NCBI RefSeq assembly: GCF_053078305.1
Contig: NZ_CP166879.1
Length of the DNA: 64,000 nt
Reading direction: 5' to 3' (one strand)
The translations under genes were made by a program, and so were the position numbers. A model generated the notes under the pieces. It made no database searches. It worked only from the letters and a program-made list of their open reading frames with translations, and was not told the origin of the DNA. Shown here piece after piece: positions 5,155 through 47,518 of the stretch. Every line of letters starts with the position of its first letter. The first letter of the stretch is position 1.

Positions 5155-5295
5155 TTACTGCTTACACTGTAAGAACGCCGCAATCTCCGCGCCCGCTATC
5201 CGGAACCGGAACTCGCACAGTGAACTGTGGGTGATCCAGATAATGAGCACTACCGTGATACAAATCACGGTGGTTTTTAACGGTTTTTGCGACAT
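5155..5295 (-). CDS. hok: Hok/Gef-family type I toxin (46 aa), not in ORF track
   Basis: Own translation: MSQKPLKTTVICITVVLIIWITHSSLCEFRFRIAGAEIAAFLQCKQ; TM helix plus LCE-R-R...AAF signature; AAGGAG RBS 9 nt upstream. Confidence 0.6.
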   Translation of the reverse strand: MSQKPLKTTVICITVVLIIWITHSSLCEFRFRIAGAEIAAFLQCKQ

Positions 5296-5493
5296 AAACG
5301 CTTGCTCCTTTTACGGAGAGGCGCTAACCTTCAATTTGCTGAAGATCGAAAGTCAGGCCTCGGGTTAAACATGAATGTTTGTCCGGGGCCTTCGTCTTTC
5401 CGGCCTTCAGGTGTTCCCTCCGGCCATCAGCCAAAGGCACCCGCGCATACTGTACGGTTTTTGTCTCCTTCCGGCAATCCCGGGGCGCGATGT

Positions 5494-29798: not shown

Positions 29799-31766
29799 TC
29801 ATGCCGCGACGTCCGCGTTGTTCACTTCCACCTTCACACTGTCAATCAGCAGCGTATATGCCGCCGCCTTTGATATGTCTGTCAGTTGCAGTTTGTCCGC
29901 CGACCCTGATGCCGGAGATTTCACCAGTGTGAACGGTGTACCCCGTTTCTCATCCAGTACCGGCATCACCTGAATGCTGTTGTTTCCGGCAAACTCAAAA
30001 GCCAGTGTGTGCCATCCGTTATCAAAGACCCCGAACGTATCCAGCTTCGCATTCTGCTTCTTGTGGTACATCGCGTTCAGGTTCGTCGCATCCGTCTGCA
30101 GGAAGAAGGACATCAGCATGTCGTTGCCTTCCTCTGACAGCGTCACTCCCTCCGGCAGGGACGGCAACTGCCAGTAAATACCCAGGGCAAACTGATTCGG
30201 CACCAGTGCGCCCGGCACCTTAAACCGCACGCTCACACGTCCGCCTTTCTTCAGCAACTCTGCTCCCTGCCCGGCGGCATCATGCTCCAGAAACCAGATG
30301 TGGCTTTCCGGTTTGTTCAGTTGCAGGGCCTTACCACCGGTGGCACCCTCATCACTGACCACAGCCTCAGCGATGTTTTTATCAACACTGTCTCCGCTCG
30401 CCGGTTTGTGATAATAGCGCCAGCCCTGTGATGCCAGGTCTTCACCGGACGCCAGCAGACTCATCAGGGTTCGGTTACTGACCGGGGCTTCCGGCTCTCT
30501 CTCCGGGCCTTCACCGGAAGGTCCGGTGGGCTTCACCGTATCAGGCTGTTTTCCGGTAATGAATTCAGCGGTTCTCCCGGCATGCACCAGAATCGCCGTT
30601 GCCAGACGGTCGGAAATAATCCCACGGCGTGCCCAGGTGCTGAAATGGCTGGCCCTGTCCACAGATGTCCAGGTCTTCTGGTCATTACGCCACTTTGAAC
30701 CGTAATAACCGACGGCTTCCAGGTCCGGGTCTTCTGCCGGGTCATTGGTCTGCACATTCGCACCATTCTCATCCGTCATTAACGGTACAAAGAAAATGTT
30801 CTGCGACTCCTTACCCTTATACCCTCCGTATACTGATGCATACCCTTCCGCATGACGCTGCTTCCAGAAATACGTTGTGTCCCCGCAAATCCACGGTACC
30901 GTTGATGCGCTGCCTCCTGTGCACTGTGATGCCTGACCGGCAAGGTCCGTTCTGAACTGATTCACCATCGCACTAAACAGCCCCGGATGCTGCGCATGCG
31001 TCCCCACTGCCGCATCACCTTCTCCCTGCATCCACACCACCGCAAGCAGACGGTTTTTCGGGTTCTTCGCCAGTGCGGCTTTAGTCCGGCTCACCAAATC
31101 CTGATACAGCGGCTTACCCACACCCCAGCGCAGTGAATTTTCCGATGCACCGGCTGATTCGCTGTATGTGCCGTCTGCACCCGTTGTGAATGCCGAAGCA
31201 CCACGGCAGCACGGAACCAGCAAAATGCCCGCATTCGCCGGTATAAACGGCAGCAGTTTTTTGGCGATATGCAGCCCCTGCCCCACGGTTCCGTACTGCC
31301 CCTTTGACAGGTCCGCTTTCGGATGGTTAAGACGGCTCATGTCCTGCACATCATGCAGACAATGGTCCGCCGGAATAATGTCGTTATACTTACAGGCGGC
31401 ACCGCCCGGTGTCACCGTACTGCGACGCGCCAGCTGCTTAATACGCGGGTCCGGACGGTCATATGTCTCCGGCAGCGGAAGGCCTTCACCATACGACATG
31501 CCGTTTGACTGCCCCGCCAGAACAACAACAAAGTAATACTCCGGTTCGCTGGTGGCGCTGATAACTGTGCCTTCTCCATCCGACGGCTTCACCACCACAG
31601 GTGTGGTGACATCACCTTCCGCCGCAATAGCCTGCATCAGGGTATAAGGCGTGATGGCCACCGGACTGCCAAATGGCTGCCACCCCTCCTTCAGTTTTTG
31701 AGTCAGTCGCTCCGCAAGGTCTGACGGCGACGCCGCCCTGACCACGTCATAGTGTTTAAATGCCAT
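29799..31766 (-). CDS. nanS-p: NanS-p-like sialate O-acetylesterase (DUF1737 N-terminus + SASA/SGNH domain)
   Basis: VVLAGQSNGMSYG catalytic-Ser motif; 655 aa; occupies the position seen downstream of stx in Stx phages. Confidence 0.7.
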   Translation of the reverse strand: MAFKHYDVVRAASPSDLAERLTQKLKEGWQPFGSPVAITPYTLMQAIAAEGDVTTPVVVKPSDGEGTVISATSEPEYYFVVVLAGQSNGMSYGEGLPLPETYDRPDPRIKQLARRSTVTPGGAACKYNDIIPADHCLHDVQDMSRLNHPKADLSKGQYGTVGQGLHIAKKLLPFIPANAGILLVPCCRGASAFTTGADGTYSESAGASENSLRWGVGKPLYQDLVSRTKAALAKNPKNRLLAVVWMQGEGDAAVGTHAQHPGLFSAMVNQFRTDLAGQASQCTGGSASTVPWICGDTTYFWKQRHAEGYASVYGGYKGKESQNIFFVPLMTDENGANVQTNDPAEDPDLEAVGYYGSKWRNDQKTWTSVDRASHFSTWARRGIISDRLATAILVHAGRTAEFITGKQPDTVKPTGPSGEGPEREPEAPVSNRTLMSLLASGEDLASQGWRYYHKPASGDSVDKNIAEAVVSDEGATGGKALQLNKPESHIWFLEHDAAGQGAELLKKGGRVSVRFKVPGALVPNQFALGIYWQLPSLPEGVTLSEEGNDMLMSFFLQTDATNLNAMYHKKQNAKLDTFGVFDNGWHTLAFEFAGNNSIQVMPVLDEKRGTPFTLVKSPASGSADKLQLTDISKAAAYTLLIDSVKVEVNNADVAA

Positions 31767-31963: not shown

Positions 31964-31993
31964 GCCCGCATCTCACCATGCGGGCTTTTTTTA
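31964..31993 (+). terminator. Rho-independent terminator on + strand
   Basis: cccgcat-ctcacc-atgcggg hairpin followed by cttttttta. Confidence 0.5.
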
Positions 31994-32000
31994 TCCATAA

Positions 32001-32238
32001 GAAAGCCCCTCCGGAGAGGGGCTGGAGTAGCGCTATGTACCGTTCATTACATGATGCCGGGTGCCTCCCGGTGAGTTCAGCCCGGTGCCACCGAACCCGC
32101 GTCATTCTCGCTAACGATCATCAGAGACCATTCCGTACACCAGCCGCCCCTCCGCACAGGGGGATTCATCATGCAGAAATTTTTTAACAAATTCTCAGTC
32201 GGGAAGACAACCTTCAACTGACTGAATTGTGAGCAACA
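32001..32238. repeat. Structured repeat unit 1 (~238 bp), diverged copy of unit at 32489-32723
   Basis: Shared blocks: gcccctccggagaggggc hairpin, gccgggtgcctcccggtgagttcag, cccctccgcacagggggattca-ATG, ttttaacaaa, ctgaattgtgag. Confidence 0.7.
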
Positions 32239-32488
32239 TAGCATTTAACGGGGAACCTGTTTTCTGCAGTAAAAAGGCCCACCGGAGCGGACGGGCCTGG
32301 AAGGATAGCGGTCATGTGATGCCGGTTTCCCGGTAACTCAGCACCGGTATCTGAGTCAACGTTTTCTCTACTGGGTCATTTCCGATACGCCCTGCCTGCT
32401 GACAGGCTTTCATCACATCTGAAAATATAGCACCCTGACTGATACTGTAGTACCCAAGGTTCCAGAAACTGTGATGTATCCGGCACAG

Positions 32489-32723
32489 AAAAGCCCCTCC
32501 GGAGAGGGGCTGACGCTGCGTATCTGTATCATCATGCGCATGGTGCCGGGTGCCTCCCGGTGAGTTCAGTATCAGCACCTGAACCCGCACAGAAAGGATA
32601 AGGGATGTAACCAAACACCTGTCGCTGATATGCCCCTCCGCTCAGGGGGATTCACCATGCCAGTTTCTTTTAACAAACTCCCCGCAAATCAGACAACTGT
32701 CAACCGTCTGAATTGTGAGACAT
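32489..32723. repeat. Structured repeat unit 2 (~235 bp)
   Basis: Same block order as unit 1; hairpins preserved by compensatory changes (ccgcaca vs ccgctca loop). Confidence 0.7.
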
Positions 32724-32789: not shown

Positions 32790-33725
32790 TTAACGTATGT
32801 GCACACAACCTGAACCGGCATCAAAAAACAAACCGTGCACTGACAGAAAACGGGAAACCTCCGTCCGCTGATCATCACTCATTAAGGACCACACAAAGGC
32901 GTTATGCTCATCTTCAAGTTTCCGTCTTCTTGTTTGCCTTACAAGCAACTCAGCCGTCACCTGTACAATGTCAATGACCACCTTCTCTTCAGCAATGTAC
33001 GGCCTGTTCCAGTTCTCTGTGTTAATCTTCTCCGTCACCGGCGCTGACTTTTTGCAAGTTTCCCCATTAAACCCGACGCCATAAACAACAACATCATCGC
33101 TTTGCTTTTCGTTATCAATAATGACGAATAATACAGAAACCGATGTATCAGCGAACCCGCCTGAAATCTGAACCAACTCAACAACGCGGTTGCCAAAATA
33201 CTGACGCATTGCCAGCTCACCACGCCTGTAACCAACCCCGGGAAAGCACAAAAAAAATGAAAATCTTGCCTTCATACTCGCCAGAACATAAAACGCGTCA
33301 TCCAGAACACCGGAGGTCTTTTTATAAGGCATCATCGCTGAAATCTTCTCCCTGATATCCGCGCTCTGTGCTTTGTACTGTAGCGAAAAAGGCGGATTCA
33401 TGATGACACAATCGAACGTGTCCGTGTCACTGACATCATCTATGGCGTTGAAGAAATTTTCATTGACCGTCTTCACTGTGGCATCCGGAAAGTTATCCGG
33501 GATATGCAACAACGGAGAGGCCTGTATATCCACAGCATACAGACTTCCCACCGTGAGAAACTGCTCCAGTTGCCCGGAGCCACACGCACCATCAAAAATA
33601 CTCAGGGGCAGATCACCACAATATTCCCGCACTTTTTCAGCGACAAACCGACGCAAAGGAACGGACGTGATGTACTCTGCGTATTTTCTGGCGACTTCGC
33701 GATTATTGGATTCCTGAAAAACCAT
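32790..33725 (-). CDS. Putative N6-adenine DNA methyltransferase, gamma-class-like (motif I before NPPF)
   Basis: IFDGACGSGQL (SAM-binding) then VIMNPPF; 311 aa, too small for a separate target-recognition domain; lies at stx-equivalent locus. Confidence 0.6.
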   Translation of the reverse strand: MVFQESNNREVARKYAEYITSVPLRRFVAEKVREYCGDLPLSIFDGACGSGQLEQFLTVGSLYAVDIQASPLLHIPDNFPDATVKTVNENFFNAIDDVSDTDTFDCVIMNPPFSLQYKAQSADIREKISAMMPYKKTSGVLDDAFYVLASMKARFSFFLCFPGVGYRRGELAMRQYFGNRVVELVQISGGFADTSVSVLFVIIDNEKQSDDVVVYGVGFNGETCKKSAPVTEKINTENWNRPYIAEEKVVIDIVQVTAELLVRQTRRRKLEDEHNAFVWSLMSDDQRTEVSRFLSVHGLFFDAGSGCVHIR

Positions 33726-33810
33726 TTGTGAAAGGCTCTGTGGTTGATATGCGCCGGGCGTGGCACGGAGACAAAAAAGGCCCGCAAAAGCGAGCCTGGG
33801 AAAATAAGTG

Positions 33811-33887
33811 TGGCGCGTTGTACTGGATTCGAACCAGTGACCGATTGCTTAGAAGGCAATTGCTCTGTCCGACTGAGCTAACAACGC
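33811..33887 (-). tRNA. argO: tRNA-Arg (anticodon UCU), argO-like
   Basis: Cloverleaf folded by hand: acceptor GCGTTGT/ACAACGC, anticodon loop CTTCTAA, T-loop GGTTCGAATCC, CCA end. Confidence 0.75.
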
Positions 33888-33900
33888 ATGATGCTGATAA

Positions 33901-33977
33901 TGGACCGCCATCGGGGACTTGAACCCCGCGCAGCCAGCTTCGAAGGCTGGCGCTCTGTCCCGATGAGCTAATGGCGG
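33901..33977 (-). tRNA. argN: tRNA-Arg (anticodon UCG as read), argN-like
   Basis: Acceptor CCGCCAT/ATGGCGG, anticodon loop CTTCGAA, T-arm CGGGGTTCAAGTCCCCG. Confidence 0.65.
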
Positions 33978-33986
33978 TATGTGATA

Positions 33987-34062
33987 TGGTGGCCCTTGCT
34001 GGATTTGAACCAGCGACCTGGCGATTATGAGTCGCTCGCTCTCACCACTGAGCTAAAGGGCC
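33987..34062 (-). tRNA. ileZ: tRNA with CAU anticodon, ileX-like (tRNA-Ile2 via lysidine, or Met)
   Basis: GGCCCTTTAGCTCAGTGGTGAGAGC...CTCATAA...GGTTCAAATCC...CCA; close to E. coli ileX. Confidence 0.75.
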
Positions 34063-34102: not shown

Positions 34103-35161
34103 TCATCCGTTCTGACTGGCTAAATCCTGAACTTCCCTGACCGTCTGCTCAAAACGTTCAGTCTCCAGCTCAACGCCAGTTGCACGACGCCCCAGCGCCA
34201 TCGCGGCTTTGACTGTCGAACCCGACCCCATGAAAAAATCTGCAACCAGGTCCCCCGGACGACTGCTCGCGCTGATTATCTGCTGCAGCATTTCTGCCGG
34301 TTTTTCGCACGGATGTTTCCCGGGATAGTACTGCACCGGTTTATGCGTCCACACATCCGTGTACGGCACCTGCGCCGTCACACCGAAATACCGCCGCAGA
34401 TGCTTATATTCACTCTGCAGTTCCGCATACTGCCGGTTCAGTGAAGTATATGTCTCCAGCAGCTGGTGGTGGGGCTTTTCCAGTTCACCCCGCTGATGCT
34501 TCTCTTCTGCCACCCGGGCAAACAGCGCCTGTAATTTCAGATAATCACTTTCGTTCGGCAGCTGCCACTGACTGGCACTGAACCAGTGCGACACCATGTT
34601 TTTCTTTCCTGTGGCATCCACTATCTGTTTTGCCGTTATCCCCAGGGCAGCGCGCGCATCACGAAAGTAAGCAATCAGCGGGGCCATCACATGCTGTTTC
34701 AGTGCCCTGCCCTTCGCCTCATACCCGGCATCTTTCGGACGATACGGCCCCTGATAATGTTCCGCGAACAGAATGCGCTCTGTGGCGGGGAAATACGCCC
34801 GCAGGCTTTCCTTGTTGCACCCGTTCCAGCGTCCGGACGGCTTTGCCCAGATGATATGGTTCAGCACACTGAAGCGTTCACGCATCATGATTTCAATGTC
34901 AGACGCCAGGCGATGACCACAGAACAGGTAAAGACTTCCGGCAGGTTTCAGCACCCGCCAGAACTGCGCCAGACACTGGTCCAGCCACTTCAGGTAATCA
35001 TCGTCGCCCTTCCACTGGTTATCCCAGCCCTCGGGCTTCACTTTAAAGTATGGCGGGTCTGTGACTATCAGATCGACAGAGTTTTCCGGTAAGGTCTGGA
35101 TAAATTCCAGGCAATCAGCGTTGATTAACTCACAACTGGATATTTTTACAGTATTAAGCAT
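34103..35161 (-). CDS. DNA methyltransferase, beta-class (DPPY ... FxGxG), 352 aa
   Basis: DLIVTDPPYF near N-terminus; DFFMGSGSTV near C-terminus. Confidence 0.75.
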   Translation of the reverse strand: MLNTVKISSCELINADCLEFIQTLPENSVDLIVTDPPYFKVKPEGWDNQWKGDDDYLKWLDQCLAQFWRVLKPAGSLYLFCGHRLASDIEIMMRERFSVLNHIIWAKPSGRWNGCNKESLRAYFPATERILFAEHYQGPYRPKDAGYEAKGRALKQHVMAPLIAYFRDARAALGITAKQIVDATGKKNMVSHWFSASQWQLPNESDYLKLQALFARVAEEKHQRGELEKPHHQLLETYTSLNRQYAELQSEYKHLRRYFGVTAQVPYTDVWTHKPVQYYPGKHPCEKPAEMLQQIISASSRPGDLVADFFMGSGSTVKAAMALGRRATGVELETERFEQTVREVQDLASQNG

Positions 35162-35311
35162 GGATCATTAAGCCTGTCTCTGATAGGCTCATTCTGCTTT
35201 TGCGCAAAGCAGTGGGCCTGAGGTTTGCTTGTGACCCCAACGCATGAGCAGATGGCTGGTGAGTGCCCCTAACACCCACCAGCCGCCCATTTACCACAAA
35301 TAAAAAAGCCT

Positions 35312-35509
35312 TCAGGACTGAAGGCGTCTGTAACAACCGAACTGATAGTCTGCCAGACCCGCCATAACAAGCTGGGTCAGTATTAACTGACAGCGTTCGC
35401 GTGAAAGGTAAGTATTCTGCGCAATCTCCCCGACTGTCGCCGGTTCGGTGACGCTTAATTCATTAAACACCACTCTGGCGGTTTCGGTCATATCCTGCTG
35501 TTTCAGCAT
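35312..35509 (-). CDS. Hypothetical small protein (65 aa); start uncertain
   Basis: MLKQQDMTETARVVFNELSVTEPATVGEIAQNTYLSRERCQLIL...; longer track ORF crosses a terminator hairpin so N-terminal extension rejected. Confidence 0.3.
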   Translation of the reverse strand: MLKQQDMTETARVVFNELSVTEPATVGEIAQNTYLSRERCQLILTQLVMAGLADYQFGCYRRLQS

Positions 35510-35632
35510 GTCTTTTTCCCTTTTCCGGTTAACGTGACACACCAATAACTCTTGTCGAAAAAGCCAGCAAGCTGAAAGACCCGTATTCGCAACCACCAGC
35601 GCGTTTACTGTACTGACGCGATTTTCGGACAT

Positions 35633-35660
35633 AAAAAAACCACCTGGCGGTGGTTTTTTC
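35633..35660 (-). terminator. tR'-like rho-independent terminator downstream of Q
   Basis: aaaaaaaccacctggcggtggttttttt palindromic hairpin with flanking A/T runs. Confidence 0.55.
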
Positions 35661-35720
35661 TTACTTTGCCATCGCGTACAAAATCGGCAAAATATCAGAT
35701 TTATACGAAACATACGCGAT

Positions 35721-36410
35721 TTAATTGACTTTTGCAATATCTCGTCGTGAAAAGGTCGCTTTTTGTTGCGCTCTTATTTTCACGGAGCAAATCAAGGATT
35801 CTCTATCGAGGCGCTTAAAAATATCGCACATCTCACGCCAGTAGTTCGCATAATTATGGCTCCAGTTATCAGGCTTAACTCCACACAGTCTGGCAAGCTC
35901 CTGTCTCTGGTAGACCTCACACCCGGTAACCCATCCTCTGACATCCTGTGCCGCCAGCCAGATCAACTTCTTCACACGCTCCAGCGTTTTCACTGCAATT
36001 TTTCTGGTACCAGACTGAGTTTTAAATTCATTCCACACCCACTGCGTTATCGCGATCTGATGCTCCCAGCAAATGTTTCCGCCATAACACCACAACAACC
36101 ACGCCTTCTGATGTTCTTCCAGTTCCAGAAGGGCACGCCGCCACGATGATGTTGCAAACTCAACAGGACTGACCAGCGCAATTGATGAGCCTTTCGCCAG
36201 TGATTGTTTACCCGGGATTGGGGGATTATCCCGCGTGATCATTTTTCCGGTTACCTCATCGCGGTAACGAATTTTTTTGCGTCTGTAACGCCCTGTATCG
36301 AACAGGGCATTTTCCTGCCAGGCTTCCAGTTGACCTTTTGTCGCCCCACTGAGATCCGCAGTGGCAATCATGAGTTGCTCACGAACAAACTGTAAATACT
36401 GGTTATTCAT
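35721..36410 (-). CDS. Q: Late antiterminator Q-like protein
   Basis: Position directly upstream of terminator and late genes, downstream of rusA; ~230 aa as Qin-type Q proteins. Confidence 0.55.
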   Translation of the reverse strand: MNNQYLQFVREQLMIATADLSGATKGQLEAWQENALFDTGRYRRKKIRYRDEVTGKMITRDNPPIPGKQSLAKGSSIALVSPVEFATSSWRRALLELEEHQKAWLLWCYGGNICWEHQIAITQWVWNEFKTQSGTRKIAVKTLERVKKLIWLAAQDVRGWVTGCEVYQRQELARLCGVKPDNWSHNYANYWREMCDIFKRLDRESLICSVKIRAQQKATFSRRDIAKVN

Positions 36411-36766
36411 GCACACCCCACCTCTGTAATTTTTATCTCCAGCCGTCCACCAGATACTGGCTTGCCACGTACAATATTGATTTCATCAAACTGCTCGTCA
36501 TCAATAAGCACTCCCGCATGCGTCAGCGCATCCAGCGGTGCTTTCAGAATATTGTCCAGGTCACGACGACGCTTATCCGGTGGCTCTGCAATAATTTTTA
36601 TTGCCAGCCGTCCGGACAGGCTTAATTTCAGCCGCTGCTGGCGAACAATAAGCGCCACTGCACGGCGATAACGCTCCCCGGCTTTTGATACAAAATATGT
36701 GCTGCCACGGCGTCGCCAGTAAGTGTTCACCGTCGGCGGGTAAGGTAAAACCAAATCTATGAGCAT
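36407..36766 (-). CDS. rusA: Holliday junction resolvase RusA
   Basis: ...PYPPTVNTYWRR...KRRRDLDNILKAPLDALTHAGVLIDDEQ...GGRLEIKITE matches RusA. Confidence 0.85.
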   Translation of the reverse strand: MLIDLVLPYPPTVNTYWRRRGSTYFVSKAGERYRRAVALIVRQQRLKLSLSGRLAIKIIAEPPDKRRRDLDNILKAPLDALTHAGVLIDDEQFDEINIVRGKPVSGGRLEIKITEVGCA

Positions 36767-36778
36767 CAGTCACCTCTT

Positions 36779-37861
36779 TTACCCGAGCACGCCAGTCGCA
36801 AAGGCGTGATCAAGAAAACGAAAAATTAACTCAATCTGAGAGCCGTACTTTTTCTCAAACTCCAGCGGGTCTGCATGAAGTTCGTTGTGGTGCTCCCGGC
36901 ACAACGGTAGCGTGAAAATATCGTGGGCCTTTGTCCCCATTCCCCCCTGACCATGACCAATCAGGTGATGCGGATCGTCAGCAGGCTTACCACAACACGC
37001 ACACGGCTGTGTCTTTACCCAGCGCGTGTATTTCTCATTAACCCAACGGCGACGTTTAGGCCGCCTCATGAACGATTCAGGAGACTCCGGATCAACGGCG
37101 ATACTGACAACCGTTTTTTTCTGTGGTGGATTTTGTTGCTGGTGGACGTGAAGTGGCAGCGCAATATTTTTTGTGCGCTGCTTCAGTATGCTGATGGCTG
37201 TCTGTTCTCCCGGTACGATGTCACTCTCACGGTATACGGAGCGGATTTTTTCCGCTGGTAATCCCAGCGAACGACGCGCTACTGCCTCAGGTAGTGCATC
37301 CACCACCTGATTGCAGGCCGCCCACCAGGATAATTCGGCCAGCGATAACTCCCTCTCCTGCGTGCCGCTTATTGCGTGACGGATGACGTCAATCATCCAG
37401 GCAACCAGATTCTGCTGAGCAAGTTGATCGAGTGATTCTGATGTCTGGTCGCGCAGCTGGTTGTCACAGTGCCAGCACAACACCATCGCGCCGGTACCGT
37501 AACGGTGAATGACGGTTTCGCTGTGATGATAATCGCCATGTGGCCACTGGCAGGATTTCACGTGACGTAATAACCAGTCAGACAGCGCACCAGCACCGCC
37601 AGCGGCACGAATCACCCGTTCATTGCTGAAAAATGGCAGTAATGATTTATCCTCAGCCAGCGGCTGGCAAACGACAGGAACAACCCCGGACGGCAAACTC
37701 CGCATGCTTTTGGGTTCCGGCTCCACCAGCACCCTGCCGCGATGAAAAACCGGCAGTAATTCGCGACCAGGCTTAATGACCACCAGGCCAAGTTCCGGGA
37801 CCAGAACAGGTCGAAGTAATACCCGCACATTATCTCCAGACACGCTGACGGTAGCAGGCAT
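36779..37861 (-). CDS. DUF968 (YdfU-like) nin-region protein
   Basis: 360 aa; C-terminal Cys/His cluster CACCGKPADDPHHL...CREHHNELH; position as Qin ydfU. Confidence 0.55.
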   Translation of the reverse strand: MPATVSVSGDNVRVLLRPVLVPELGLVVIKPGRELLPVFHRGRVLVEPEPKSMRSLPSGVVPVVCQPLAEDKSLLPFFSNERVIRAAGGAGALSDWLLRHVKSCQWPHGDYHHSETVIHRYGTGAMVLCWHCDNQLRDQTSESLDQLAQQNLVAWMIDVIRHAISGTQERELSLAELSWWAACNQVVDALPEAVARRSLGLPAEKIRSVYRESDIVPGEQTAISILKQRTKNIALPLHVHQQQNPPQKKTVVSIAVDPESPESFMRRPKRRRWVNEKYTRWVKTQPCACCGKPADDPHHLIGHGQGGMGTKAHDIFTLPLCREHHNELHADPLEFEKKYGSQIELIFRFLDHAFATGVLG

Positions 37862-38690: not shown

Positions 38691-38846
38691 TTACTTCTCA
38701 GATTCGTAGTCTACGAAGACAGCAACCTCCGTCTGGCCGGTTCGGATTCGTACCTCGCAGAGGTCTTTCCTCGTTACCAGTGCCGTCACAACAACGGTAA
38801 TACAGATGACGATCAGGGCGATTAACATCGCCTTTTGCTGCTTCAT
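38691..38846 (-). CDS. hok: Hok-family type I toxin (51 aa)
   Basis: MKQQKAMLIALIVICITVVVTALVTRKDLCEVRIRTGQTEVAVFVDYESEK; track ORF extends upstream (mok-like reading frame). Confidence 0.8.
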   Translation of the reverse strand: MKQQKAMLIALIVICITVVVTALVTRKDLCEVRIRTGQTEVAVFVDYESEK

Positions 38847-39136
38847 AGCCTGCTTCTCCTTGCCTTTCGGCACGTAAGAGGCTAACCTACGTTTGTGAAG
38901 CATAGATTGGGCCTCAGATTAATGTTAAGCGTCCTGCAAGACGCGTAATGTTAACTGGGGCTTTTCTCTGTCTGCCTTACGGCGGCATGCCCGAGGCAGA
39001 CAGCCTCAAGCACCCGCAGCAATTCTACTTAACTCTTCTTTCCCCGCAAACCGTTTTTATCCCCAGCGGCAAATCGAATACACCACCAGCGCCACCGCCA
39101 TTGCAATACCAACATTTGAGAAGGCCTCAGGCCAGC

Positions 39137-46475: not shown

Positions 46476-46933
46476 AAAGTGAATTTTGTGATGCGGTGAA
46501 TGCGGCTAAGCGCACGCGGAACAGTTAAAACCGTAAAGTGGTCTTTTACGGGGCGTAACGGGCATACTTCTGTATTCCGGCGTTAATTGTTAACTGGTTA
46601 ACGTCACCTGGAGGCACCAGGCACTGCATCGACAAAGTTCACTTCGGTGATGAAAGGTAAGAGAAAATGTTGAATGTAGCTATTGAAAACCAGAACGGGT
46701 GGAATTATAGTGCACCTGCACCTCATAAAGCGGGTGCCGGGATTGCTACCCCGATGTTCATCATGGCGCATAACCGCGCTCAGGCGTTTTTTTTATGCGT
46801 AATGCACAGCCACATTCAGATTATGGTGGGGCGTGCAGGGCAGCCGCAAGGCTGGCCGGGTTCCATGATGACCGGTTGTAGCAACCCTGTGCGTCTCACC
46901 ACCCATGAGATTGCTACCTCCGGTGGTGAGTTA

Positions 46934-47518
46934 ATGAAATTCATCATGGAGGCTGCCATCATGGCTACTATCCCTGCCCTTTCTCACCCTGAAATTACTA
47001 TCGCCAATGGGCGTGCTGTTACATCCTCTTTAGCTGTTGCCGAGTATTTCCGGAAACCACACAAAGATGTACTGGCAAAAATTTCACGTCTAGACTGTTC
47101 AGCAGAATTCACTGAGCGAAATTTTTCGCCCAGTGAATATACCGACTCAACCGGGCGCAAACTCCCTATGTACCAAATCACCAAAAACGGCTTCGTTTTC
47201 CTGGTGATGGGCTTCACCGGCAAAAAAGCCGCTGCATTTAAAGAAGCCTACATCGCTGAGTTCGATCGCATGGAGAAAGAACTGCGCCAGAATAACGCCC
47301 CGTCTCCCGACAAAATGATTCACGGGGACGGACGTACCCTGGTTATCCGTCTCGACGAACACGGCAATATCAAATTCACTGAAACCGTTCCTGATGGTGC
47401 AATGGTCTGCACCCTGGATACCTTCCAGTTTTATCTGGAGAAACAAGGCTGGACTCTTGTAAACCGGAGCGCAATTAAAAATATGACTGTGGAGCAATTA
47501 CTAAAAATTCATTGTTGA
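46934..47518 (+). CDS. rha: Rha-family phage regulatory protein (start uncertain: 46934 or 46961)
   Basis: ...ITIANGRAVTSSLAVAEYFRKPHKDVLAKISRL...PMYQITKNGFVFLVMGFTGKKAAAFKEAYI... Rha domain. Confidence 0.65.
   Translation: MKFIMEAAIMATIPALSHPEITIANGRAVTSSLAVAEYFRKPHKDVLAKISRLDCSAEFTERNFSPSEYTDSTGRKLPMYQITKNGFVFLVMGFTGKKAAAFKEAYIAEFDRMEKELRQNNAPSPDKMIHGDGRTLVIRLDEHGNIKFTETVPDGAMVCTLDTFQFYLEKQGWTLVNRSAIKNMTVEQLLKIHC

What the first reader, a model, noticed from the sequence alone, without database searches (positions are those of the whole stretch)
35633..35737. Late-operon control region: tR'-like terminator immediately after Q
A palindromic hairpin with A and T runs lies about 60 bp downstream of the Q stop, the expected place for PR'/qut/tR'. 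An ORF-track entry (35312-35737) reads straight through it and is therefore likely an artefact in its 5' part.
Basis: partly seen in the sequence, partly recalled or inferred. Interest (0 to 1): 0.25.

Follow-up and report, generated by a model that had tools for sequence, protein, structure and literature searches.

The report
Phage-82-type late promoter and terminator
The hairpin just after the prophage's Q gene is real and, with the conserved promoter and pause signal in front of it, forms the ordinary, already well-studied phage-82-type switch that keeps late (lysis) genes off until Q protein is made.

Summary
Confirmed and ordinary. All genes here lie on the minus strand. Q (35721-36410) belongs to Pfam PF06323, the phage 82 Q family, and is 67% identical to 82 Q. 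Its last codons carry a -35 hexamer, TTGCAA (35737-35732). After a 17-bp spacer comes TATGTT (35714-35709), which predicts a start at A35702.

The first 26 transcribed bases are AAATCTGATATTTTGCCGATTTTGTA. They fit every published descriptor of 82 pR': an AAA start, an extended -10-like pause element at +6..+14, GCC at +15-17, an AT-rich tract, and U at the +25 pause site.

A strong intrinsic terminator follows at 35660-35633: 12 pairs, a 7-U tract, -16.1 kcal/mol, and 0 of 200 shuffles fold as well. The predicted RNA is about 70 nt.

All 34 distinct versions of this region, from 84 Q82-family loci, keep the layout. The terminator stem changes by compensatory substitutions, and the T-run is kept in 31 of 34. 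The GenBank record of phage 434 annotates a terminator at the same place.

The 141-aa ORF 35312-35737 is an artefact in its 5' part. Its TTG start is the -35 hexamer itself, and the real gene is a 65-aa winged-helix-like ORF starting at 35509.

No transcript data were available, so promoter activity and Q-dependent read-through are inferred, not shown.

The parts
35721..36410 (-). Q antiterminator gene, Q82 family (229 aa from ATG 36410; the ORF list gives a GTG start at 36416)
   Evidence: Pfam PF06323, E = 4.7e-84. phrog_304 'anti-termination protein Q-like'. 67% identical to phage 82 Q and 63% to phage 434 Q. PF06323 is the Q82 family per PMC9388147.
35732..35737 (-). PR' -35 hexamer TTGCAA, inside the last codons of Q (...I-A-K-V-N-stop)
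   Evidence: Invariant in all 34 variants and in Klebsiella and Enterobacter phages. Phage 82 itself has the same hexamer at the same offset from the Q stop. It also supplies the TTG 'start' of the artefactual ORF.
35715..35731 (-). 17-bp promoter spacer AAGTCAATTAAATCGCG, the candidate Q-binding element (QBE)
   Evidence: PMC4914094 places the QBE between -35 and -10. The spacer is nearly invariant among Q proteins at least 81% identical and differs in the 434 and PPompW lineages, whose Q C-terminal regions differ. Binding was not tested.
35709..35714 (-). PR' -10 hexamer TATGTT
   Evidence: The TAnnTT pattern is kept in the Escherichia-type variants and CobraSix as TATGTT, TACATT, TACGTT, TAAATT, TATATT or TATACT at a fixed 17-bp spacing. 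The Klebsiella phage reads CATATT. The promoter matches 8 of 12 consensus positions, below the scanner's 9-of-12 cut-off, so the scan did not list it.
35700..35702 (-). Predicted transcription start: the A at 35702, first base of an AAA triplet
   Evidence: It lies 7 nt after the -10 hexamer. 82 pR' starts with AAA (PMC5001585). With this start, GCC falls at +15-17 and U at +25, as published.
35686..35697 (-). Sigma70-dependent pause element: TG (+6,+7), A, TATTTT (+9..+14), then the discriminator GCC (+15..+17)
   Evidence: It fits the published description of 82 pR': an extended -10-like element, closer to TATAAT than lambda's, with GCC at +15-17. The core TGnTAT is kept in all E. coli, Klebsiella and Enterobacter loci examined. 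Gifsy-1 differs here.
35677..35678 (-). Predicted promoter-proximal pause positions +25 (U) and +26 (A), where Q would load
   Evidence: This follows from the published 82 pR' pause at +25/+26 with U at +25. It is an inference for this locus.
35662..35694 (-). Predicted first stem-loop of the leader RNA (+9..+41), UAUUUUGCC.../...GGCAAAGUA
   Evidence: Predicted by RNAfold. It is absent from the short-leader variants (434, L063, L075) and its pairs are not maintained in L009 and L036, so no evidence of selection was found.
35633..35660 (-). Intrinsic terminator tR' (t82-like): 12-bp stem, GCCA loop, U7 tract at 35639-35633; predicted RNA 3' end near 35633
   Evidence: Fold energy -16.1 kcal/mol, z = -6.15; listed by the scan. 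All 34 variants have a hairpin, in at least five stem versions with compensatory changes; 31 of 34 keep a T-run of 6 or more. Phage 434 annotates a terminator at the same place.
35312..35509 (-). First gene after tR': a 65-aa winged-helix-like protein (the real gene inside the long ORF)
   Evidence: Annotated as a 198-bp gene in phiP27 (L23) and in RefSeq as a 'TrmB family transcriptional regulator'. phrog_331, E = 1e-37. Pfam TrmB scores 18.1 bits, below the 25.6 cut-off. The ATG is invariant in 25 contexts.
35510..35737 (-). Non-coding 5' part of the mechanical ORF 35312-35737 (promoter, leader, terminator and 5' UTR)
   Evidence: The upstream in-frame stretch is open for only 2, 6 or 15 codons in many relatives. 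1-nt indels occur near the ribosome-binding site and after the T-run.
35308..35325 (-). Second terminator-like hairpin GCCTTCAG-TCCT-GAAGGC followed by TTTTTTATTT, overlapping the stop codon of the 65-aa gene
   Evidence: Listed by the scan. Fold energy -10.5 kcal/mol, z = -2.8. phiP27 has an equivalent hairpin with a changed loop.

Best explanation
The interval 35633-35737 (minus strand) is the late-gene control region of a lambdoid prophage whose Q protein belongs to the phage 82 family.

A constitutive sigma70 promoter, PR', has its -35 hexamer TTGCAA inside the last codons of Q, a 17-bp spacer that should hold the Q-binding element, and the -10 hexamer TATGTT. It starts transcription at A35702.

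Sigma70 then re-binds an extended -10-like element, TGATATTTT, at +6..+14, and RNA polymerase pauses at about +25/+26.

Without Q, the polymerase escapes the pause and terminates at the hairpin and U7 tract (+43..+70). This releases an RNA of about 70 nt.

When Q is made, it binds the spacer DNA and the paused complex. The Q-modified polymerase reads through this terminator and the later ones (35325-35308, 33797-33778 and the hairpins in the two STnc100 elements). It then transcribes the small winged-helix gene, two DNA methyltransferases, three tRNAs, a nanS-p-like esterase gene and the lysis genes.

Shown here: the sequence elements, their conservation, the compensatory change in the stem, and the fit to published descriptors of 82 pR'. 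Inferred: promoter activity, the pause, termination and Q-dependent read-through at this particular locus.
For: Q is PF06323, E = 4.7e-84. PF06323 is the Q82 family (PMC9388147). The window's Q is 67% identical to 82 Q over its full length.

The authentic phage 82 record ends ...ATATTGCAAAACTGGATTAA, so it has the same TTGCAA at the same offset from the stop codon.

With the start at 35702, the window matches every textual descriptor of 82 pR' in PMC5001585: an initial AAA, an extended -10-like element, GCC at +15-17, an AT-rich tract before the pause, U at +25, and a pause at +25/26. PMC4914094 places the QBE between -35 and -10.

In 34 distinct variants from 84 loci, the -35 hexamer, the spacing, the TAnnTT -10, the initial transcribed region and a terminal hairpin are all present; 31 of 34 keep a T-run of 6 or more. 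The first 26 transcribed bases are 100% identical in a lineage whose Q gene is only 76% identical (L005).

The stem occurs as CCACC/GGTGG, CUGCC/GGCGG, CCCGC/GCGGG, CCCGCU/AGUGGG and GCCUGC../..GCGGGC, with two-sided changes at two core positions. The T-run after the stem is kept, while the A-run before it varies from 0 to 8. Selection therefore acts on the Q-sense strand.

The hairpin folds at -16.1 kcal/mol and 0 of 200 shuffles do as well. Phage 434, which has a Q82-like Q, has an annotated terminator 49-74 nt after Q.
Against: No transcript mapping or biochemistry exists for this locus.

The promoter matches only 8 of 12 consensus positions, and the consensus scan did not list it.

The phage 82 sequence downstream of its Q stop was not in any collection or paper text I could reach. 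The identity with 82 pR' therefore rests on five verbal descriptors plus the last 21 nt of Q, not on an alignment.

The window's Q differs from 82, 434 and PPompW Q in its C-terminal third, so its exact binding site is unknown.

The hairpin also sits at a mosaic junction and recurs, with a different stem, behind an unrelated gene in phiP27. In other genomes it is therefore not exclusively a PR' terminator.
Confidence: 0.9

Rival explanations
1. The hairpin is mainly the terminator that ends the upstream (delayed-early, ydfU-rusA-Q) transcription unit. The true late promoter lies elsewhere, for example near the STnc100 elements upstream of the lysis genes.
For: The hairpin follows the Q stop by 61 nt, so it would also stop any unmodified polymerase coming from upstream. 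In phiP27 an equivalent hairpin follows an unrelated 409-aa gene, L22.
Against: A conserved promoter plus pause element lies between Q and the hairpin, and it is more conserved than Q itself. It fits the published features of 82 pR'. No Q gene and no comparable promoter was found next to the lysis genes. The two roles do not exclude each other.
Confidence: 0.05
2. The hairpin works chiefly as a bidirectional terminator that shields Q from plus-strand (antisense) transcription coming out of the late region.
For: In the window the stem is flanked by A6 and T7, and the plus-strand fold is -13.6 kcal/mol followed by TTTTTT.
Against: No credible plus-strand gene or promoter points at it. Across variants the A-run, which would be the plus-strand T-run, shrinks to 0-4, while the sense-strand T-run stays at 6-9.
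Confidence: 0.05
3. The long ORF (141 aa from TTG 35737, or 106 aa from ATG 35632) is a real gene, and the hairpin is simply coding sequence or an attenuator inside it.
For: The reading frame is open for 88 codons upstream of ATG 35509 in the window. An ATG directly follows the T-run. The phrog_331 profile extends 34 positions beyond the N-terminus of the 65-aa protein.
Against: Relatives have stop codons 2, 6 or 15 codons upstream of the conserved ATG. 1-nt indels shift the frame. phiP27 has no ATG after the T-run. Curated and RefSeq annotations call only the 65-aa gene.
Confidence: 0.02

Closest known systems
Phage 82 late promoter region (82 pR', QBE, sigma70-dependent pause at +25/26, downstream terminator) with the Q82 antiterminator
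   Same: The Q family is the same (PF06323; 67% identity). TTGCAA sits at the same offset in the end of Q. The transcript starts with AAA. An extended -10-like pause element lies at +6..+14, GCC at +15-17 and U at +25. A terminator follows within about 70 nt.
   Different: The C-terminal third of Q and part of the spacer (the presumed QBE) differ, so DNA-binding specificity may differ. The full 82 sequence downstream of Q was not available for alignment.
Phage 434 late region (OL657226: Q82-like gene followed by an annotated terminator)
   Same: Same order and spacing: Q, TTGCAA-17-TATACT, AAATTTGGTATGTT, then a hairpin with a T-run.
   Different: The 434 leader is about 19 nt shorter and lacks the first stem-loop. 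It has GTA, not GCC, at +15-17. Its stem is CCCGCU/AGUGGG. The cargo after the terminator is a membrane protein rather than the wHTH-methylase-tRNA module.
Lambda PR'-qut-tR' (6S RNA)
   Same: The logic is the same: a constitutive promoter after Q, a sigma70-dependent promoter-proximal pause, an intrinsic terminator, and Q-dependent read-through (PMC4914094, PMC9388147).
   Different: The Q family is unrelated (PF03589). Lambda pauses at +16/17 and terminates at +193, against +25 and about +70 here.
StxS (Stx phage PR'-tR' RNA) and IsrK (Gifsy-1 short RNA directly downstream of the Q82-family antQ)
   Same: Both are short terminated transcripts made just downstream of a Q gene in lysogens. Gifsy-1 antQ is a Q82-family relative whose stop codon overlaps a promoter and is followed by a terminator.
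   Different: No sequence homology was found. The Rfam isrK model scores 19.2 bits here against a gathering score of 50. The unprocessed StxS precursor is 258 nt. No evidence exists that the RNA here binds Hfq or acts in trans.

Membership tests
Q82-type late control region (PR'-QBE-pause element-terminator) | Lies immediately downstream of, or overlapping, a Q gene of the Q82 family (PF06323) | tested here: met
   PF06323, E = 4.7e-84, 281.9 bits against a cut-off of 25. 67% identical to 82 Q.
Q82-type late control region (PR'-QBE-pause element-terminator) | A sigma70 promoter at the 3' end of Q | tested here: met
   At sequence level only: TTGCAA-17-TATGTT, conserved in 34 of 34 variants, with the same -35 hexamer in the phage 82 record. 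Promoter activity was not tested.
Q82-type late control region (PR'-QBE-pause element-terminator) | An initial transcribed region with an extended -10-like element, GCC at +15-17, and U at the +25 pause site | tested here: met
   AAATCTGATATTTTGCCGATTTTGTA, counted from 35702, fits all descriptors in PMC5001585.
Q82-type late control region (PR'-QBE-pause element-terminator) | A Q-binding element between -35 and -10 | tested here: inconclusive
   The spacer is conserved among close Q relatives and diverges along with the Q C-terminal region.
Q82-type late control region (PR'-QBE-pause element-terminator) | An intrinsic terminator downstream of the pause site | tested here: met
   Hairpin at +43..+70 with a U7 tract, -16.1 kcal/mol, z = -6.15. 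A hairpin is present in all 34 variants, with compensatory changes in the stem.
Q82-type late control region (PR'-QBE-pause element-terminator) | Q-dependent read-through of the terminator | not testable with these tools
   This needs in vitro transcription or reporter assays with and without Q.
Rfam isrK (RF01394) | A score at or above the family's gathering threshold | tested here: not met
   19.2 bits against 50, at 35633-35711 on the minus strand. A true isrK hit lies elsewhere, at 46718-46794 on the plus strand.
Protein-coding gene 35312-35737 | The reading frame and start codon are conserved in relatives | tested here: not met
   Only the 65-aa part is conserved. The upstream frame is broken by stop codons and 1-nt indels.

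The most novel reading that the evidence does not exclude
The RNA of about 70 nt made from PR' and ended at this terminator may not be a mere by-product. It could be a constitutively expressed, Hfq-binding regulatory RNA of the lysogen, as shown for StxS in Stx phages and IsrK in Gifsy-1. It ends in a U7 tail preceded by an A-rich linker (AGUAAGAAAAAA) that resembles an ARN-type Hfq distal-face motif. The cassette (this Q 3' end, PR' and the small gene) is present in at least 259 of 5426 complete E. coli genomes. Nothing here tests this reading. The leader's 5' half is constrained anyway by its DNA-level pause function.
Probability: 0.12. Interest if true: 0.4.

Novelty: already known. Interest (0 to 1): 0.12.

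Why it matters
It matters mainly for annotation. The result places the late promoter, the pause site and the first late terminator of a common E. coli prophage type to the base. It removes a spurious 141-aa ORF. It shows that the wHTH-methylase-tRNA cargo, and everything down to the lysis genes, sits behind a Q82-type antitermination switch.

The comparative set may be of modest use to people studying Q82, the only Q family without a solved structure. It comprises 34 natural variants of an 82-type pR' with an invariant pause element, variable terminator stems and two leader lengths.

Tried and rejected
(1) I looked for the phage 82 sequence downstream of Q. The only 82 record in the phage collection (X92588) stops at the Q stop codon. 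Full-text searches for 12-13-mers of the leader found only unrelated papers. The supplement of PMC4914094 with the template sequences is not held. A search for 't82' found nothing useful.

(2) The sigma70 consensus scan did not list PR', which matches 8 of 12 positions. It listed only a plus-strand TTGCCA-16-CAAAAT at 35666-35693. I reject that hit as chance: 2 hits were found against 3.1 +/- 1.8 expected, and it is the complement of the leader stem.

(3) An Rfam search at a permissive threshold gave only sub-threshold, terminator-driven hits (STnc370, Phe_leader, isrK, RNAI). None is a family assignment.

(4) A PDB sequence search with Q found no solved relative. The only hit was a chance one, E = 0.065.

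(5) The first leader stem-loop (+9..+41) is missing in short-leader variants and not maintained in others, so I do not claim it is functional.

(6) My first two scripted hairpin finders failed. They were replaced by RNAfold per variant and a pattern table.

Full report
**Observation**

All relevant genes lie on the minus strand, in this order:
- ydfU/DUF968, 36779-37861
- rusA, 36407-36766
- Q, 35721-36410
- a small gene
- a DNA methyltransferase, 34103-35161
- three tRNAs, 33811-34062
- a second methyltransferase, 32790-33725

The hairpin begins sixty-one nucleotides after the Q stop codon (TAA, 35723-35721). It reads G-AAAAAACCACC-GCCA-GGTGGTTTTTT-U and spans 35660-35633. As RNA on the Q-sense strand it folds at -16.1 kcal/mol, with z = -6.15, and none of 200 dinucleotide-preserving shuffles folds as well. 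The plus-strand version folds at -13.6 kcal/mol. The consensus scan lists it on both strands.

The mechanical ORF 35312-35737 exists and translates the hairpin as KKKPPPGGFF.

**What Q is**

The Q protein matches Pfam PF06323 end to end (E = 4.7e-84) and phrog_304. Yin et al. 2022 (PMC9388147) equate PF06323 with the Q82 family, one of three unrelated Q families. The window's Q is 67% identical to phage 82 Q, 63% to phage 434 Q, and 74-75% to the Q of the PPompW and 606R7 phages.

Its likely start is ATG 36410. That codon overlaps the rusA stop as ATGA, and it is the start used in all relatives. No solved structure of this family was found.

**The promoter and pause element**

Between Q and the hairpin the minus strand reads:

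TTGCAA (35737-35732) – AAGTCAATTAAATCGCG – TATGTT (35714-35709) – TCGTAT – AAATCTGATATTTTGCCGATTTTGTA...

The -35 hexamer lies inside the last Q codons. The genuine phage 82 record ends ...ATATTGCAAAACTGGATTAA, so it has the same hexamer at the same offset.

A start 7 nt after the -10 hexamer puts +1 at A35702. Bird, Strobel and Roberts 2016 (PMC5001585) describe 82 pR' with these features:
- it starts with AAA
- its -10-like pause element is closer to TATAAT than lambda's and carries an extended -10 motif
- GCC lies at +15-17
- an AT-rich tract precedes the pause
- U is at +25
- the pause is at +25/+26

Counting from 35702 the window has AAA at +1-3, TG at +6/+7, TATTTT at +9-14, GCC at +15-17, AUUUU at +19-23 and U at +25. 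Every descriptor fits. Wells et al. 2016 (PMC4914094) place the Q82 binding element between -35 and -10. Here that is 35731-35715.

The consensus scan did not list this promoter, because it matches only 8 of 12 positions.

**Comparative evidence**

A scan of viral contigs returned 80 loci with Q 81-100% identical to the window's. With the window, phage 434, PPompW and 606R7 these collapse to 34 distinct versions of the Q-downstream region.

All 34 keep the following:
- TTGCAA
- the 17-bp spacing
- a TAnnTT -10 hexamer
- a 6-nt gap
- the initial transcribed region
- a terminal hairpin

31 of 34 follow the hairpin with a T-run of 6 or more. L005 has TTTTGTTG, and L079/L080 have TATCTTTT. The predicted RNAs are 53-74 nt long.

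The first 26 transcribed bases are more conserved than Q itself. They are 100% identical in a lineage whose Q gene is 76% identical at the DNA level (L005).

The terminator stem occurs in at least five versions:
- CCACC/GGUGG
- CUGCC/GGCGG
- CCCGC/GCGGG
- CCCGCU/AGUGGG
- GCCUGC../..GCGGGC

Two-sided substitutions occur at two of the five core pairs. The A-run before the stem varies from 0 to 8, while the T-run after it is much better kept. What is selected is therefore a terminator for the Q-sense strand. The window's own A6/T7 version could also work in both directions.

Klebsiella phage 2 LV-2017 and Enterobacter phage CobraSix share the -35 hexamer, the spacer, the TGATAT pause core and a downstream terminator. 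Gifsy-1 has a consensus promoter across its Q stop and a terminator about 80-100 nt on. The curated phage 434 record annotates a terminator 49-74 nt after its Q82-like gene.

**The long ORF**

RefSeq and phiP27 annotate only a 198-bp gene (35509-35312). It is labelled 'hypothetical' or 'TrmB family transcriptional regulator'.

In 25 distinct contexts its ATG is invariant. The in-frame open stretch upstream ranges from 2 to 88 codons, and 88 occurs only in the window. 1-nt indels occur near the ribosome-binding site and after the T-run. phiP27 has no ATG after its T-run. The TTG 'start' at 35737 is the first half of the -35 hexamer.

**Mosaic junction**

Stx2 phages and phiP27 carry other Q types. 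Their homology with the window starts inside the hairpin, at window positions 35657 or 35649. Conversely, Q82-type loci that lack the small gene diverge from the window right after the T-run.

phiP27 has a different hairpin, CCCGCC-GCCT-GGCGGG-TTTTTT, at the same spot, but behind an unrelated 409-aa gene. The terminator is thus the seam between the Q/PR' module and the wHTH-methylase-tRNA cargo module.

**Mechanism**

The mechanism is inferred from the 82 paradigm. PR' fires constitutively. Sigma70 re-binds the -10-like element, and the polymerase pauses at +25/26. Without Q, the polymerase terminates at +70. With Q bound to the spacer and to the paused complex, the polymerase becomes resistant to termination.

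It then reads through this terminator, the one at 35325-35308, the one at 33797-33778, and the hairpins in two STnc100 elements. It finally reaches the esterase and lysis genes.

**Comparison with known systems**

This is the phage 82 / phage 434 type of late control region, not the lambda type. The lambda type has a pause at +16/17 and terminates at +193.

Short PR'-derived RNAs are known to act as regulators in two cases. One is StxS (PMC7547250). The other is IsrK, which lies directly after the Q82-family antQ of Gifsy-1 (PMC4825925). The window's leader is not a member of the Rfam isrK family: it scores 19.2 bits against a threshold of 50. A regulatory role for the 70-nt RNA is not excluded, but it is untested.

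**Verdict**

The finding is correct and the element is ordinary and already well understood. Its value is in precise annotation. Nothing was measured experimentally here. Promoter activity, pausing, termination and Q dependence at this locus are inferences from conservation and from the literature on phage 82.

Noticed in passing
window 31993-32203 and 32483-32689 (minus strand): Two tandem full-length matches to the Rfam sRNA family STnc100 (164 and 135 bits) lie between the second methyltransferase and the nanS-p-like SASA esterase gene (29799-31766). Each ends in a terminator-like hairpin, AGCCCCTCTCCGGAGGGGCT (32511-32492 and 32023-32004). They sit inside the presumed late operon. Their role there is unknown.
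   Followed up: partly
window 46718-46794 and 46819-46906 (plus strand): Above-threshold Rfam hits to isrK (58 bits) and to the C4 antisense RNA (78 bits) lie side by side. They overlap the 5' part of the mechanical ORF 46667-47518, whose role is untested. The layout resembles the P1 immI module. In Gifsy-1, IsrK sits directly after a Q82-family Q. Here it lies 11 kb from Q and on the other strand.
   Followed up: partly
window 35312-35632 (minus strand): The 65-aa winged-helix-like gene (phrog_331; weak TrmB match) is the first gene after tR'. Its 5' UTR of about 120 nt is almost invariant across phages with different Q families, including the Stx2a, Stx2d and Stx2e phage phiP27. The UTR is conserved to a degree that suggests a function of its own.
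   Followed up: partly
window 35649-35657: DNA homology with Stx2 phages and phiP27 starts inside the terminator hairpin. Q82-type loci with other cargo diverge right after the T-run. The terminator is the recombination seam between modules.
   Followed up: yes
window 36407-36416: The rusA stop and the Q start overlap as ATGA. Q most likely starts at ATG 36410, not at the GTG 36416 given by the ORF list.
   Followed up: yes
window 33778-34062 (minus strand): Three tRNA genes (Met-CAT, Arg-TCG, Arg-TCT) are followed by a strong terminator-like hairpin (33797-33778). They lie between two DNA methyltransferase genes inside the late operon, as in Stx phages.
   Followed up: no
window 38691-39015 and 5284-5442 (minus strand): A hok-like ORF (38691-38903) with an Rfam sok match (117.7 bits at 38841-39015) lies upstream of the ydfU-rusA-Q block. 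A second, weaker sok match is at 5284-5442.
   Followed up: no
window 35721-35950 (C-terminal third of Q): The C-terminal part of this Q (roughly residues 158-215) differs markedly from 82, 434 and PPompW Q, while the N-terminal two-thirds are well conserved. The promoter spacer differs in parallel. This may reflect a different DNA-binding specificity.
   Followed up: partly
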